The position numbers and the translations under genes are program-made. From a virus (Duplodnaviria > Heunggongvirae > Uroviricota > Caudoviricetes), in the IMG/VR virus record IMGVR_UViG_2534682087_000016, positions 1-6,726 of that record: a stretch of DNA of 6,726 nt; one strand, written 5' to 3'. Shown here piece by piece: positions 1 to 6,726 of the stretch. Below the pieces are notes generated by a model. It saw only the letters and a list, made by a program, of their open reading frames with translations, made no database searches and had not been told where the DNA came from. The first letter of the stretch is position 1. Every line of letters begins with the position of its first letter.

Positions 1-1410
<1,410 letters not shown>

Positions 1411-1427
1411 ATTTTATAACCCATAAC

Positions 1428-1452
1428 GGGCGTCAGAAATGACGCCTTTTTT
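1428..1452 (+). terminator. Rho-independent terminator downstream of J
   Basis: Perfect 7-bp stem GGCGTCA (1429-1435) / TGACGCC (1440-1446) with GAAA loop, followed directly by TTTTTT (1447-1452). Lies 18 nt after the J stop. Confidence 0.6.
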
Positions 1453-1465
1453 ATTGCAGAAAAGC

Positions 1466-1471
1466 GAGAGG
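1466..1471 (+). promoter_or_regulatory. Ribosome binding site for lom
   Basis: GAGAGG, 5 nt upstream of the ATG at 1477. Confidence 0.5.
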
Positions 1472-1476
1472 TAATT

Positions 1477-2074
1477 ATGCGTAAACTTTATGCCGCCATT
1501 TTGTCCGCAGCCATTTGTCTGGCCGTATCCGGTGCGCCTGCATGGGCGTCTGAACATCAGTCCACGCTGAGCGCGGGGTATCTTCATGCCTCGACGAACG
1601 TTCCCGGCAGCGATGATCTGAACGGGATTAACGTGAAATACCGTTATGAGTTTACGGACACACTGGGGATGGTGACGTCTTCAGCTATGCAGGAGACAAG
1701 AATCGCCAGTACCCGTTACAGCGATACCCGCTGGCATGAAGATTCCGTCGTAACCGCTGGTTCAGCGTATGGCGGGGCCGTCTGTGCGCGTGAATGAATG
1801 GTTCAGCGCGTATGCGATGGCGGGTGTGGCTTACAGCCGTGTGTCGACTTTCTCCGGGGATTATCTTCGCGTAACTGACAACAAGGGGAAAACGCACGAT
1901 GTACTGACCGGAAGTGATGACGGTCGCCACAGCAACACGTCTCTGGCGTGGGGGGCTGGCGTGCAGTTTAACCCGACCGAATCCGTGACCATTGACCTTG
2001 CTTATGAAGGTTCCGGTAGTGGCGACTGGCGATCGGATGCATTTATTGTTGGTATCGGATACCGTTTCTGACAA
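1477..2074 (+). pseudogene. lom: Lom outer-membrane protein (Ail/Lom/OmpX/PagC beta-barrel family), reading frame disrupted
   Basis: Start MRKLYAAILSAAICLAVSGAPAWA is a signal peptide. The gene is split between ORF 1477..1797 (frame 1) and ORF 1769..2071 (frame 2). By hand, the Lom-like sequence hops frames four times between ~1679 and ~1770: frame 1 …LGMVTS, frame 3 FSYAGDKNRQ (1680-1709), frame 1 TRYSDTRWHEDSV (1711-1749), frame 3 RNRWFSV (1749-1769), frame 2 MAGPSVRVNEWF… to the stop at 2072-2074. The second half (…GVAYSRVSTFSGDYLRVTDNKGKTHDVLTGSDDGRHSNTSLAWGAGVQFNPTE…GYRF) matches lambda Lom as I remember it. Confidence 0.75.
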
Positions 2075-2176
2075 CAGACGCCGATTTATCTTCTGTAAAT
2101 ATTGTTATGATACGCAGGTTCATCCACCTTATGGGGTGAACTGCGTTTGAGGAAACGTAAAGTTACACTGTCCTGA

Positions 2177-2208
2177 AGCCCGTGGCGTCACTGCTGCGGG
2201 CTTTTTTT
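2177..2208 (+). terminator. Rho-independent terminator between lom and stf
   Basis: Stem AAGCCCGTGGC (2177-2187) pairs with GCTGCGGGCTT (2192-2202), including three G-U pairs, around a 4-nt loop TCAC; a run of seven T (2202-2208) follows. Confidence 0.5.
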
Positions 2209-2211
2209 ATT

Positions 2212-2217
2212 GGTGGA
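2212..2217 (+). promoter_or_regulatory. Ribosome binding site for stf
   Basis: GGTGGA, 5-6 nt upstream of the ATG at 2223. Confidence 0.4.
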
Positions 2218-2567
2218 AAAGTATGACAGTAAAAATTTCTGGCGTGCTTAAAGATGGCACAGGAAAACCAGTACAGAACTGCACCATTGTGCTGAAGGCC
2301 AGACGAACCAGCAGCACGGTGGTGGTGAACACGGTGGCCTCTGAAAATCCGGATGAAGCCGGACGTTACAGCATGGATGTTGAGCATGGTCAGTACAGCG
2401 TCACCCTGCTGGTTGAAGGTTTTCCGCCTTCACATGCCGGGACCATTACCGTCTATGAAGGTTCCAGACCAGGTACGCTGAATGATTTTCTCGGTGCCAT
2501 GACGGAGGATGATGTCCGACCGGAGGCACTGCGCCGCTTTGAGCAGATGGTGGAAGAAGTGTCACGT

Positions 2568-3600
2568 AACGCCTCCGCGGTTGCACAGAATACGGCAGCC
2601 GCGAAAAAATCAGCCAGCGATGCCAGTGCATCAGCCAGCGAGGCGGTAACTCATGCAACCGATGCTGCAGCCTCAGCACGTGCCGCCAGCACGTCAGCCG
2701 GACAGGCCGCGTCGTCGGCTCAGTCAGCGTCTTCCAGCGCAGGAACGGCATCAACAAAGGCCAGTGAAGCATCGAAAAGTGCTGCTGCTGCAGAGTCCTC
2801 AAAAAGCGCGGCAGCTACCAGTGCCGCTGCGGCGAAAACGTCAGAAACGAATGCGGCAGCGTCACAACAATCAGCAGCCACTTCTGCATCCGCCGCGACC
2901 ACGAAGGCGTCAGAAGCAGCCACCTCAGCCCGGGATGCGGCGGCCTCAAAAGAGGCAGCGAAATCATCAGAAACGAACGCATCATCAAGCGCCAGTAGTG
3001 CCGCTTCCTCGGCAACGGCGGCAGGCAATTCCGCGAAGGCGGCAAAGACGTCTGAGACAAACGCCAGGTCTTCTGAAACGGCAGCGGGACAGAGCGCCTC
3101 AGCTGCGGCAGACTCAAAAACAGCGGCTGCATTATCTGCCAGTGCCGCGTCAACAAGTGCCGGGCAGGCCTCAGCCAGTGCCACCGCCGCCGGAAAATCG
3201 GCAGAAAGTGCTGCATCGTCTGCTTCAACAGCCACAACGAAGGCTGGCGAAGCCGCTGTACAGGCCAGCGCAGCAGCGAGGTCTGCTTCCGCAGCGAAGA
3301 CATCCGAGACGAACGCGAAAGCGTCGGAAACCAGCGCAGAATCCTCAAAAACGGCTGCCGCATCGTCCGCCAGTTCGGCGGCGTCATCGGCATCATCTGC
3401 GTCTGCTTCAAAAGATGAGGCGACCAGACAGGCGTCAGCAGCAAGGGAGCGCCACGACGGCATCCACGAAGGCGACAGAGGCAGCTGGCAGTGCGACGGC
3501 GCAGCTCAGAGCAAAAGTACGGCGGAATCGCGCAACGCGCGCTGAGACAGCGGCAAAACGGGCAGAGGATATTGCATCCGCCGTGGCGCTTGAGGATGCG
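2568..3600 (+). repeat. Low-complexity Ala/Ser/Thr/Lys/Glu-rich region of the Stf shaft, with reiterated AAKTSETNA-type motifs
   Basis: About 340 codons made almost only of A, S, T, K, E, G, Q and N. AAK(T/S)SETNA occurs four times, ASTSAGQA twice, and TTKA(S/G)EAA twice. The GCN-rich coding leaves other frames on both strands open, which generates the spurious ORFs here. Confidence 0.6.
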
Positions 3601-3603
3601 AGC

Positions 3604-3830
3604 ACGACGAAAAAGGGGATAGTACAGCTCAGCAGTGCGACCAACAGCACTTCCGAGTCACTGGCGGCAACGCCAAAAGCCGTTAAGGCCGCGTATGACC
3701 TGGCTAACGGGAAATACACCGCACAGGATGCAACGACAGCACAGAAAGGGATAATCCAGCTAAGCAGCGCGACCAACAGCACGTCTGAAACGCTTGCCGC
3801 GACACCAAAGGCAGTAAAAGCAGCCAATGA
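3604..3830 (+). repeat. Tandem duplication of a ~38-residue tail-fibre repeat
   Basis: [38 protein letters not shown] is followed by [38 protein letters not shown]; the two DNA copies are roughly three-quarters identical. Confidence 0.6.
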
Positions 3831-4804
3831 CAATGCTGAGAAACGTCTGCAGAAAGATCAGAACGGTGCGGATATCCCTGGCAAAGATACCTTTACGAAA
3901 AATATTGGTGCCTGCCGTGCCTTCGGTGGGTCAGTAAGCACAACAACAGGAAACTGGACGACTGCACAGTTTATCGAGTGGCTGGATTCTCAGGGAGCAT
4001 TTAACCATCCATACTGGATGTGCAAGGGTTCCTGGTCTTATGGCAATAATAAAATCATTACTGATACTGACTGCGGTAATATTCATCTCGCCGGAGCTGT
4101 CATTGAAGTAATGGGGATAAAGTCAGCGATGACGATCCGCATTACCACACCGACCACCTCCACTGGTGGTGGAACAACTAACGCCCAGTTTACCTATATT
4201 AATCACGGAACAGATTATTCACCTGGCTGGCGAAGGGACTATAACTCCAGAAATAAGCCAACGGCATCAGAGATCGGGGCGTTACCGTCAGGTGGAACAG
4301 CAGTATCATCAGTTAATCTGGCTTCAAAAGGTCGGGTAACCGCGCTGACAGACAATACGCAGGGGGCAGCAGGTCTTGAGTTATACGAGGTGTATAACAA
4401 CGGATATCCAACAGCGTATGGAAATATCATTCACCTGAAAGGGATGACAGCCGTTGGCGAAGGTGAGTTACTCATCGGCTGGAGTGGTACAAGCGGTGCT
4501 CATGCTCCGGCATTTATTCGTTCACGACGGGATACGACCGACGCAAACTGGTCGCCGTGGGCGCAGCTTTACACCTCGGCTCATCCTCCTGCAGAGTTTT
4601 ATCCAGTCGGTGCACCAATCCCGTGGCCATCAGATACCGTTCCGTCTGGTTATGCCCTGATGCAGGGGCAGACTTTTGACAAATCTGCATACCCGAAACT
4701 TGCAGTTGCTTATCCGTCAGGCGTGATCCCTGATATGCGTGGCTGGACGATTAAGGGCAAGCCCGCCAGTGGTCGGGCCGTATTATCTCAGGAACAGGAC
4801 GGCA

Positions 4805-5220
4805 TTAAATCGCACACCCACAGCGCCAGCGCATCCAGTACGGATTTGGGGACGAAAACCACATCGTCGTTTGATTACGGAACCAAATCCACGAATAACA
4901 CCGGGGCGCATACCCATAGTATTAGCGGGACCGCAAATAGTGCCGGTGCGCACCAACACAAGAGTTCCGGTGCATTTGGTGGCACGAACACGAGCATTTT
5001 CCCTAATGGTTATACCGCGATTTCAAATCTAAGCGCGGGGATTATGAGCACAACAAGCGGTAGTGGCCAGACTCGTAATGCAGGGAAGACATCATCAGAT
5101 GGTGCTCATACCCACTCGCTGTCCGGCACTGCTGCAAGCGCAGGCGCACATGCACATACTGTCGGTATTGGTGCTCATACGCACTCCGTTGCGATTGGTT
5201 CACATGGACACACCATCACC
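4805..5220 (+). repeat. His-x-His repeat region of the Stf distal tip
   Basis: Repeated motifs [73 protein letters not shown]. Interspersed HxH motifs are characteristic of the C-terminal domain shared by lambda Stf and T4 gp37. Confidence 0.6.
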
Positions 5221-5277
5221 GTTAACGCTGCTGGTAACGCGGAAAACACCGTCAAAAACATCGCATTTAACTATATT

Positions 5278-5283
5278 GTGAGG
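5278..5283 (+). promoter_or_regulatory. Ribosome binding site for tfa, inside the 3' end of stf
   Basis: GTGAGG, 8 nt upstream of the tfa ATG at 5292. The stf stop TAA (5290-5292) shares one base with that ATG (TAATG). Confidence 0.5.
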
Positions 5284-5291
5284 CTTGCATA

Positions 5292-5876
5292 ATGGCATTC
5301 AGAATAAGTGAACAACCACGGACCATAAAAATTTATAATCTGCTGTCCGGAACTAATGAATTTATTGGTGAAGGTGATGCATATATTCCGCCTCATACAG
5401 GTCTGCCAGCAAACAGTACCGACATTGCACCGCCAGATATTCCAGCTGGCTTCGTGGCTGTTTTCAACAGTGATGAGTTATCGTGGCATCTCGTTGAAGA
5501 TCATCGGGGTAAAACGGTTTATGACGTGGCTTCCGGCGACGCGTTATTTATTTCTGAACTCGGCTCATTACCGGAAAATGTCACCTGGTTATCCCCGGAA
5601 GGGGAGTTTCAGAAGTGGAACGGCACAGCCTGGGTGAAAGATGCAGAAGCAGAAAAACTATTCCGGATCCGGGAGGCGGAAGAAACAAAAAACAGCCTGA
5701 TGCAGGTAGCCAGTGAGCATATTGCGCCACTTCAGGATGCTGTAGATCTGGAAATCGCAACGGAGGAAGAAACCTCATTGCTGGAAGTCTGGAAAAAGTA
5801 TCGGGTGTTGCTGAACCGTGTTGATACATCAACTGCACCGGATATTGAATGGCCAACAGGACCCATTATCGAATAG
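5292..5876 (+). CDS. tfa: Tail fibre assembly protein Tfa (194 aa)
   Basis: Intact [65 protein letters not shown]… is near-identical to lambda Tfa as I remember it, with the same length. It sits directly downstream of stf and is translationally coupled to it. Confidence 0.92.
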
Positions 5877-5887
5877 TGCATTACGAA

Positions 5888-5926
5888 CTGCAGGATATTA
5901 TATGGGATAATATTCTGCAGTTTATT
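5888..5926 (+). terminator. Stem-loop terminator between the convergent tfa and GGDEF genes (stronger for the + strand)
   Basis: A 13-bp stem, CTGCAGGATATTA (5888-5900) pairing with TAATATTCTGCAG (5908-5920) with one G-U pair, around a 7-nt loop TATGGGA, followed by TTTATT (5921-5926). On the - strand the same hairpin is followed by a weaker U-tract. Confidence 0.5.
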
Positions 5927-5949
5927 GGGGCTGTATTTTAAAAAGGTGT

Positions 5950-6726
5950 TTATTTTGAGTGAGTTATCACCTTGTTCTTTCCGGTTCTTTTGGCTTGATA
6001 TAACGCTTTATCGGCATTGACTAACATTTCAGATGGACTGAGATTATTCTCTTTTGAAGTAAAACAACCAATACTGACGGTTATTTTCTCAGGTCCATGC
6101 GATAATAATTTTTTCGAGCATTGCTCTTCAATGTTTTTTCTGATTCGCTCTGCAATTGATAGCAAGAGCTTTTGAGTATTACCTTTAATGATAATACCGA
6201 ACTCCTCACCGCCTAAGCGCCCTAATATATCCTCTTTCCTGATGGATTTTTTTATTATTCTGGTAACCATTACTATGACTTGATCACCCATATGATGCCC
6301 CCATTTGTCATTGATGCTTTTGAAATTGTCAATATCTAACATTATTACTGAGAAATCATGGTGTTTTGATATATTCTTCAATGAGTCAATAAAGTATCTT
6401 CTATTGTATGTATTCGTTAGTGGATCATGAATTGCCATATGATTAGCATGATTTAATTTCCTGAAAACATAATACATGAGTGTTGAAATGATATAAATCA
6501 TTGATATCAATTCAAGAAATTTTGTCATGTACCATGCAGGATGGGATTTATCAATAAAATACAATAAAATTAGGTTATTGCATACTGACACTATACTAAT
6601 AAGTATTATACACAACCATATTTTTGAGTAATTACGTATGCTGATGCATGAGCTGATAAGTAATACAAGCCAAAATACTGATATTATTTTGGTGTACACG
6701 ATATTCCACGTCGACAAATGACGATT
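5950..6726 (-). CDS. Membrane-anchored diguanylate cyclase (GGDEF domain, GGEEF active site, RxxD I-site); N-terminus beyond the window
   Basis: The - strand ORF ends at the TAA at 5950-5952. The GGDEF domain motifs are all present: HDPLTNTYNRRYF, LDIDNFKSIND, GHHMGDQV, RLGGEEF (nt 6199-6219), TVSIGC, ADKALYQAKRTGKN. RKED lies 5 residues upstream of GGEEF. The N-terminal ~90 residues in the window are hydrophobic with at least three predicted transmembrane helices. The track's start at 6717 is a TTG codon and the frame stays open to 6726, so the gene is 5'-truncated by the window. GC is about 30%. Confidence 0.85.
   Translation of the reverse strand, partial: NRHLSTWNIVYTKIISVFWLVLLISSCISIRNYSKIWLCIILISIVSVCNNLILLYFIDKSHPAWYMTKFLELISMIYIISTLMYYVFRKLNHANHMAIHDPLTNTYNRRYFIDSLKNISKHHDFSVIMLDIDNFKSINDKWGHHMGDQVIVMVTRIIKKSIRKEDILGRLGGEEFGIIIKGNTQKLLLSIAERIRKNIEEQCSKKLLSHGPEKITVSIGCFTSKENNLSPSEMLVNADKALYQAKRTGKNKVITHSK

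What the first reader, a model, noticed from the sequence alone, without database searches (positions are those of the whole stretch)
1675..3545. Frame-breaking indels are confined to two ~90-nt patches while ~5 kb of neighbouring coding sequence is clean
J (470 codons), the two flanks of stf (~400 and ~600 codons) and tfa (194 codons) show no frame problems, yet lom and stf each carry 3-4 indels inside one short patch. Random decay would scatter lesions; clustering points to local low-quality sequence (a single poor read, homopolymer error) or to a localised mutational event. Either way these two patches decide whether the element encodes a functional Lom and side fibre.
Basis: inference. Interest (0 to 1): 0.45.

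Follow-up and report, generated by a model that had tools for sequence, protein, structure and literature searches.

The report
Assembly artefact breaking lom and stf
The two clusters of frame-breaking deletions in the prophage genes lom and stf are real in the deposited sequence, but they are almost certainly an assembly error made where reads from two near-identical prophage copies were merged, so the genes are probably intact in the bacterium.

Summary
Against intact homologues, the window lacks exactly five single bases in lom (after 1679, 1709, 1710, 1748, 1768) and five in stf (after 3442, 3447, 3500, 3529, 3531). There are no other coding indels.

None of 5,426 complete E. coli genomes carries these deletions. 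The best matches are otherwise identical (211/216).

The ten missing bases are exactly the positions where two natural alleles differ. Deleting the five columns that differ between alleles L001 and L011 reproduces window 1625-1860 letter for letter. Doing the same with L002 and L008 reproduces 3400-3720.

The window is a whole 6,726-bp contig (AQAS01000020.1). It shares its truncated Lom product with contigs of ETEC isolates from patient P0304777, whose project used Illumina reads at >200x and Celera Assembler.

Sibling assemblies repeat the lom patch, though with different flank alleles. One has the stf patch intact. All carry further runs of one-base deletions, never insertions, in the multicopy genes J, lom and stf.

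Restoring the bases gives a 199-aa Lom and a 1,024-aa Stf.

Verdict: a consensus artefact at collapsed paralogous prophage copies, not decay or localised mutagenesis. Low interest, apart from its use as a quality warning.

The parts
1..1410 (+). 3' part of the tail-tip gene J (469 codons). No frame problem in this contig.
   Evidence: Pfam Ig_J, Ig_J_second, Phage_Tail_Tip and Ig_GpJ_C on the called product. No indels against L001, L002 or L003.
1428..1457 (+). Terminator-like hairpin plus T-run between J and lom.
1477..2071 (+). lom (Ail/Lom outer-membrane beta-barrel). As deposited it is split into 1477..1797 and 1769..2071.
   Evidence: ORFs. Pfam Ail_Lom on both halves. Restoring five bases gives 199 aa.
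1679..1768 (+). Patch 1: five one-base deletions, after 1679, 1709, 1710, 1748 and 1768.
   Evidence: These are exactly the five columns where alleles L001 and L011 differ within 1625-1860.
2175..2214 (+). Terminator-like hairpin plus T-run after lom.
2223..5292 (+). stf (side tail fibre). As deposited it is broken, with the first frame ending at 3545.
   Evidence: ORFs. Pfam Phage_fiber_2 and Collar on the window's own C-terminal product; phage_tail_N on the full-length Stf of sibling contigs L007 and L008. Restoring five bases gives 1,024 aa ending at 5292.
3442..3531 (+). Patch 2: five one-base deletions, after 3442, 3447, 3500, 3529 and 3531.
   Evidence: These are exactly the five columns, all transitions, where alleles L002 and L008 differ within 3400-3720.
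5292..5876 (+). tfa (tail fibre assembly protein, 194 aa), intact.
   Evidence: Pfam Caudo_TAP_N and Caudo_TAP. The exact protein is present on 79 public contigs.
5950..6726 (-). 3' part of a MASE4/GGDEF diguanylate cyclase gene. It is prophage-end cargo next to ybhB and bioA, single-copy, with no indels.
   Evidence: The sibling contig L007 carries the whole gene with MASE4 and GGDEF, followed by ybhB and bioA. Annotation in L001. No gaps against L001 or L007.

Best explanation
The ten missing bases are an artefact of the consensus step of the draft assembly.

Proposed sequence of events:
1. The sequenced ETEC clone carries several lambdoid prophages. Their J, lom and stf genes are nearly identical over long stretches.
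2. Where two copies differ by only a few percent, the overlap-based assembler pooled reads from both copies into one contig.
3. At each column where the copies disagree, the consensus emitted no base.
4. The result is a run of one-base deletions, one per variant site, confined to the zone where both copies were merged.

The patches are short only because that is where the variant sites of the merged zones happen to lie. In the real genome, lom and stf are most likely intact.

What is shown:
- The position and nature of the lesions.
- Their exact coincidence with allelic differences.
- Their absence from all complete E. coli genomes.
- Their non-reproducibility (stf) or flank-independence (lom) among sibling assemblies.
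- Their restriction to multicopy genes.

What is inferred:
- The software step that dropped the columns. It could be stripped ambiguity codes, or a mismatch split into two columns that were each called as a gap.
- The presence of an L002-type stf copy in this clone.
For: 1. Alignment-free reconstruction.
- Removing the five columns at which L001 (strain 30EVA1) and L011 (strain 2013C-3264) differ gives exactly window 1625-1860.
- Removing the five columns at which L002 (strain H14) and L008 (sibling contig AQAO01000015) differ gives exactly window 3400-3720.
- For a given pair of alleles, the chance of five random deletions doing this is about 1e-10 per patch.

2. Comparison with complete genomes. 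In 5,426 complete E. coli genomes the best matches to both patches are 211/216. The five gaps are the only differences, and no genome has them.

3. Direction of the lesions. Only deletions occur, with no insertions or substitutions inside the patches.

4. Source of the data.
- The window is contig AQAS01000020.1.
- Sibling contigs belong to isolates of patient P0304777.
- Per-patient isolates are described as clonal, sequenced on Illumina HiSeq at >200x and assembled with Celera Assembler (PMC4462620).

5. Sibling assemblies.
- L008 is intact at the stf patch.
- The lom patch is present in four siblings, but with L011-like flanks (window, L007) or with L001-like marker bases in the flanks (L008, L013).
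- This shows that both lom alleles exist in the clone.

6. More of the same lesion elsewhere.
- L008 has 22 one-base deletions in J and 6 in stf.
- L007 has 6 in J.
- L013 has 14 in J.
- L014, from another patient, has about 30 in J and 3 in lom.
- The single-copy GGDEF-ybhB stretch shows no indels.

7. Enrichment at variable sites. Deletion columns fall preferentially on sites that vary among references, with P from 1e-7 to 3e-4 in four of five regions. The stf patch gives only P = 0.026, because the aligner placed two gaps on neighbouring invariant columns.

8. Repair with either allele restores Lom (199 aa) and Stf (1,024 aa).
Against: - No reads were available, so mixed read support at the ten sites is inferred, not seen.
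- The L002-type stf allele has not been shown to exist in this clone. Only the L008-type allele is seen there.
- The allele pairs were picked after inspecting about ten references.
- The lom patch is reproducible in four sibling assemblies. Taken alone, that could mean an inherited mutation.
- The exact assembler behaviour that drops variant columns was not documented in the papers searched.
Confidence: 0.93

Rival explanations
1. The deletions are genuine. They are clustered mutations that inactivated lom and stf in a decaying prophage, for example through error-prone repair synthesis, or aberrant processing of mismatches in heteroduplex DNA formed between two co-resident prophage copies.
For: - The lom patch is identical in four sibling assemblies.
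- Cryptic prophages do accumulate pseudogenes. Other E. coli genomes have truncated J and stf genes annotated.
Against: - No known process removes exactly one base at each mismatch site and leaves everything else untouched.
- The stf patch is absent from a clonal sibling that has otherwise identical sequence.
- The same lom patch sits in two different prophage contexts with different flank alleles.
- Dozens of further deletions, never insertions, occur at differing places in each sibling assembly.
- None of 5,426 complete genomes shows such a lesion.
Confidence: 0.03
2. This is ordinary local low-quality sequence: one poor read or a low-coverage stretch with base-calling or homopolymer errors.
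For: - The lesions are local and they are errors of the record.
- The contig is short (6.7 kb), typical of a hard-to-assemble region.
Against: - Average coverage was >200x with Illumina chemistry. That chemistry produces mainly substitutions, not deletions (general knowledge).
- The patches contain no substitutions and no insertions.
- The deleted bases are not in homopolymers.
- Random read errors would not fall on precisely the allelic-difference sites.
- Random read errors would not recur identically in four assemblies.
Confidence: 0.03
3. The frame changes are functional: programmed frameshifting, or targeted hypervariation of a receptor-binding gene (DGR-like).
For: - Tail-fibre genes are the classical targets of diversity-generating systems (general knowledge).
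- The stf region stays open in two frames for about 900 nt.
Against: - The double-open frame is explained by the T-poor Ala/Ser-rich composition, with AT skew of 0.3-0.48.
- DGRs make adenine substitutions, not deletions. They also need a reverse transcriptase and a template repeat, and no ORF in the window is assigned such a function.
- The five stf sites are synonymous variants.
- lom, which is not a receptor-binding protein, shows the same lesion.
Confidence: 0.005

Closest known systems
Collapsed-repeat consensus errors in short-read draft assemblies
   Same: - Confined to multicopy sequence (prophage J, lom, stf).
- Not reproducible between assemblies of the same clone.
- Accompanied by allele switching along the contig.
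- Disappears in finished genomes.
   Different: The usual outcome is a mosaic of substituted bases or an ambiguity code. Here every variant column was dropped, giving pure one-base deletions and false frameshifts. I found no paper describing this specific behaviour.
The natural stf frameshift of laboratory lambda (lambda PaPa versus Ur-lambda: orf-401/orf-314)
   Same: It affects the same gene in a close relative, where a frameshift splits stf into two ORFs.
   Different: The lambda case is a single, real, inherited one-base change (own knowledge). Here five bases are missing within 89 nt, at allelic-difference sites, and they are absent from a clonal sibling.
Pseudogenes of cryptic lambdoid prophages in E. 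coli
   Same: Broken J and stf genes are common, and are annotated in complete genomes.
   Different: Those are truncations, IS insertions or isolated frameshifts. None of 5,426 complete genomes shows these lesions.

Membership tests
Collapsed-paralogue assembly consensus artefact | Lesions coincide with the sites at which co-resident copies differ. | tested here: met
   Dropping the L001/L011 differences reproduces window 1625-1860 exactly. Dropping the L002/L008 differences reproduces window 3400-3720 exactly.
Collapsed-paralogue assembly consensus artefact | The affected sequence is multicopy in the genome, and single-copy neighbours are clean. | tested here: met
   - The lom patch region matches a median of 2 and up to 13 places per E. 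coli genome.
- Sibling contigs show two lom contexts.
- The GGDEF-ybhB flank has no indels.
Collapsed-paralogue assembly consensus artefact | Not reproducible in independent assemblies of the same clone. | tested here: met
   - stf patch: intact in sibling L008.
- lom patch: it recurs, but with different flank alleles and an extra dropped site at window 1866 in L008. For lom this criterion alone is therefore inconclusive.
Collapsed-paralogue assembly consensus artefact | Reads show two base states at each site and no read carries the deletion. | not testable with these tools
   No access to the sequencing reads.
Genuine prophage pseudogene (decay) | The lesion is inherited, present in every assembly of the lineage, and accompanied by scattered substitutions. 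| tested here: not met
   The stf lesion is absent in a sibling. There are zero substitutions in either patch relative to natural alleles.
Homopolymer or low-quality read error | Indels lie in base runs, or are mixed with substitutions and insertions, at low coverage. | tested here: not met
   - The contexts are not homopolymers.
- Only deletions occur.
- The project reports >200x coverage.
Ail/Lom family (PF06316) - identity of the gene at 1477-2071 | Pfam Ail_Lom match, and a full-length beta-barrel of about 199 aa once repaired. | tested here: met
   Pfam hits on both fragments. The repaired ORF is 199 aa. The homologues are annotated Ail/Lom.
Lambdoid side tail fibre Stf - identity of the gene at 2223-5292 | phage_tail_N N-terminus, Collar and fibre repeats, followed by tfa. 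| tested here: met
   Pfam Phage_fiber_2 and Collar on the window's own C-terminal product, and phage_tail_N on the full-length Stf of sibling contigs. The repaired ORF is 1,024 aa and ends at the tfa start codon.

The most novel reading that the evidence does not exclude
The deletions are real. They would record an unknown repair outcome in which each mismatch of a heteroduplex, formed between two co-resident prophage paralogues, is resolved by excising a single base. That would leave a track of one-base deletions at every allelic difference.
Probability: 0.015. Interest if true: 0.8.

Novelty: not a real feature. Interest (0 to 1): 0.1.

Why it matters
Biologically, very little. The prophage most likely encodes intact Lom and Stf, and nothing here points to targeted mutagenesis or unusual decay.

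Practically, it is a useful warning:
- All five assemblies of this ETEC project that I examined drop bases at paralogue-variant sites in prophage genes.
- This creates false pseudogenes in J, lom and stf.
- Sometimes the dropped bases add up to a multiple of three, which leaves an ORF that looks intact but contains a scrambled stretch (L008 Stf).
- Pseudogene counts, prophage-integrity calls and tail-fibre or host-range comparisons based on these records would be misled.

The test used here is simple and could be reused as a diagnostic: check whether removing the differences between two natural alleles reproduces the sequence.

Tried and rejected
- Exact-match scans for the deleted versions of both patches found nothing in the species-representative genomes or in the viral contigs. 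The lesions are therefore not shared with any record in those collections.
- Searching papers for the WGS accession prefixes found nothing. The project was instead identified through strain names attached to the truncated Lom protein.
- Table S1 of the project paper is not held, so the isolate name of the window's assembly could not be fixed.
- I guessed from neighbouring protein accession numbers that a second truncated Lom (P0002) came from the same assembly as the window. The look-up showed a fourth assembly, AQAP, so that inference was dropped.
- A literature search for a documented Celera Assembler behaviour that drops variant columns gave nothing specific.
- Column-wise MAFFT tests understate the coincidence with variable sites, because the aligner places some gaps on a neighbouring invariant base. 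The alignment-free reconstruction replaced them.
- DGR, programmed frameshifting and homopolymer error were considered and rejected (see rival explanations).
- No tRNA genes were found in the window. The only Rfam match lies inside tfa and is unrelated to the patches.

Full report
**What the window is**

The window is the right arm of a lambdoid prophage.
- The 3' 1.4 kb of J lies at 1-1410.
- lom lies at 1477-2071.
- The side tail fibre gene stf lies at 2223-5292.
- tfa lies at 5292-5876.
- On the minus strand, the 3' part of a MASE4/GGDEF diguanylate cyclase gene lies at 5950-6726.

This reading rests on the ORF list, precomputed Pfam hits and the annotation of close relatives. In relatives and in a sibling contig, the GGDEF gene is followed by ybhB and bioA.

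**Checking the observation**

I aligned the window to intact homologues from complete genomes and one phage: L001 (strain 30EVA1), L002 (strain H14), L003 (phage SPF_0923) and L004-L006. These alignments show exactly five one-base deletions in lom and five in stf.
- lom: after 1679, 1709, 1710, 1748 and 1768.
- stf: after 3442, 3447, 3500, 3529 and 3531.

Each patch spans 89 nt. There are no insertions, and there are no substitutions within the patches relative to the nearest alleles. No other indel occurs in about 6 kb of coding sequence.

Ten random events on about 6.3 kb were never covered by two 90-nt windows in 200,000 simulations. An approximate analytic estimate of that probability is 2e-11.

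The apparent 900-nt overlap of two long stf ORFs (2223..3545 and 2653..5292), and the long antisense ORFs there, come from a T-poor Ala/Ser-rich region. Its AT skew is 0.3-0.48.

**Are the deletions seen anywhere else?**

I searched 211-nt queries across each patch against 5,426 complete E. coli genomes. They matched thousands of places. The best matches were 211/216, meaning the five gaps were the only differences, and no genome had the deletions. Exact-match scans of species-representative genomes and of viral contigs found nothing.

**Source of the window**

An exact look-up of the truncated 106-aa Lom product identified the window as the whole contig AQAS01000020.1 of assembly GCA_000358415.2. 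It also found the same product in two sibling assemblies, AQAH (L007) and AQAO (L008).

The protein records name the organisms as Escherichia coli P0304777.4 and P0304777.11. A one-residue variant comes from P0304777.5 (AQAP, L013). A related truncated form comes from an isolate of another patient, P0302293.9 (AQAF, L014).

These belong to the ETEC study of Sahl et al. (PMC4462620).
- Multiple colonies were taken per patient in Dhaka in 2011.
- Sequencing used Illumina HiSeq2000 paired-end libraries at >200x average coverage.
- Assembly used Celera Assembler.
- Isolates from most patients were clonal. The patient printed as 'P030477', presumably P0304777, is not one of the two non-clonal subjects.

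The supplementary table is not held. The window's own isolate number is therefore not fixed.

**The decisive result**

The missing bases are exactly the sites where two natural alleles differ.

In lom:
- L011 (strain 2013C-3264) is identical to the window at every retained base from 1400 to 1953.
- L001 differs from L011 within 1625-1860 at five positions only: G/A, A/C, T/G, T/G and A/G.

In stf:
- The sibling contig L008 is identical to the window over 3300-3720 except for the five missing bases.
- L002 differs from L008 within 3400-3720 at five positions only, all of them transitions.

An alignment-free test confirms this.
- Take L001 and L011 between 20-nt anchors and delete every column where they differ. 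The result equals window 1625-1860 exactly.
- Do the same with L002 and L008. The result equals window 3400-3720 exactly.
- No other pair of complete-genome or cross-source references does so.

For a given pair, five random deletions would achieve this with a probability of about 1e-10. Allowing for the few dozen pairs inspected does not change the conclusion.

**Evidence from sibling assemblies**

The stf patch is not reproducible. L008 carries the same allele intact.

The lom patch does recur, in L007, L008 and L013. However, it sits in two different contexts.
- The window and L007 have L011-like flanks.
- L008 lies next to a different J. It carries an L001-like marker base on each side of the patch and drops one further variant site, window 1866 (T/C).
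- L013 encodes the L001-like residue R39.

So the clone holds both lom alleles, and the zone between their flank markers was merged.

Every project contig examined carries more lesions of the same kind, always deletions.
- L008 has 22 in J and 6 in stf.
- L007 has 6 in J.
- L013 has 14 in J.
- L014 has about 30 in J and 3 in lom.
- The single-copy GGDEF-ybhB stretch shows no indels (L007 against L001).

Deletion columns are enriched at sites that vary among references, with P from 1e-7 to 3e-4 in four of five regions. In the window's stf patch the column-wise test gives only P = 0.026, because the aligner put two gaps on neighbouring invariant bases. This column-wise test therefore understates the effect.

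**Mechanism**

Shown:
- The lesions are column drops at inter-copy variant sites.
- They occur in multicopy prophage genes of short-read Celera assemblies.

Inferred:
- Reads from two paralogous prophage copies that differ by about 2% over 100-250 nt were pooled in one contig, and the consensus emitted nothing at conflicting columns.
- I could not determine whether that happened through stripped ambiguity codes or through a mismatch being split into two columns each called as a gap. A literature search gave nothing specific.

The equal 89-nt spans appear to be coincidental. In stf, the right edge of the patch is simply where the two alleles stop differing, because they are identical from 3532 to about 5300. 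In lom, the next variant sites lie 68 nt to the left and 99 nt to the right of the patch.

**Consequence for the genes**

Restoring the five bases with either allele gives a 199-aa Lom (the two alleles differ by one residue, L versus I) and a 1,024-aa Stf. That Stf ends at the stop at 5292, which overlaps the tfa start. The five stf variants are synonymous. The element therefore most likely encodes intact Lom and Stf.

**A caveat about the contig as a whole**

The window switches best-matching allele several times.
- Up to about 1950 it is L007/L011-like.
- From 1990 to 3400 it is identical to L004 (strain FDAARGOS_1248).
- From 3200 to 5300 it is identical to L008.
- From 5200 to the end it is identical to L007.

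The sibling contig L007 links the same lom and the same tfa-GGDEF segment through a different stf. In clonal isolates, at least one of these joins is probably chimeric.

**Rivals**

Real clustered mutation is contradicted by four points.
- The stf patch is intact in a sibling.
- The lom patch occurs with different flank alleles.
- The excess of deletions varies from one assembly to the next.
- The lesions are absent from complete genomes.

A poor read or homopolymer error is contradicted by three points.
- Coverage and sequencing chemistry do not fit.
- There are no substitutions.
- The lesions coincide with allelic sites.

Programmed frameshifting or DGR-like variation has no support. The lesions are deletions rather than adenine substitutions, no ORF in the window is assigned a reverse-transcriptase function, and the stf variants are synonymous.

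**Verdict**

This is not a biological feature. Its value is as a quality warning for these and similar draft assemblies.

Noticed in passing
window 1-6726; switch zones at about 1954-1990, 3200-3400 and 5200-5300: The contig changes best-matching allele three times: L007/L011-like, then identical to L004, then identical to L008, then identical to L007. The clonal sibling contig L007 joins the same lom and tfa-GGDEF through a different stf. The contig is therefore probably chimeric between co-resident prophages.
   Followed up: partly
L008 8654-11728 (sibling contig AQAO01000015): The Stf ORF is called as intact (1,024 aa) but has six dropped bases, between locus 9054 and 9286. Because six is a multiple of three the frame is restored, which hides an out-of-frame, scrambled stretch of about 70 aa.
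   Followed up: yes
window 5950-6726 (minus strand): A low-GC (27-37%) MASE4/GGDEF diguanylate cyclase gene sits between tfa and the chromosomal ybhB-bioA genes. This appears to correspond to the b region of lambda, whose attachment site lies between gal and bio (own knowledge), so it looks like prophage cargo. Many E. coli genomes have the same arrangement.
   Followed up: no
window 5635-5833 (+): A full-length Rfam match to IS009 (RF02111, 225.9 bits, gathering score 117) lies inside the 3' part of tfa.
   Followed up: no
window 2650-3550, both strands: The Ala/Ser-rich, T-poor part of stf (AT skew 0.3-0.48, GC about 60%) keeps two sense frames and two antisense frames open for 600-900 nt, for example 2720..3463 on the minus strand (247 aa). 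These look like compositional ghosts rather than genes.
   Followed up: partly
window 300-800 (J): The window and its sibling L007 differ at 12 substitution sites here, although they are identical over 800-1900 and 5200-6726. This suggests the consensus chose different paralogue alleles in different assemblies.
   Followed up: partly
window 1428-1457 and 2175-2214 (+): Terminator-like hairpins with T-runs flank lom on both sides, as expected for an independently expressed moron.
   Followed up: no
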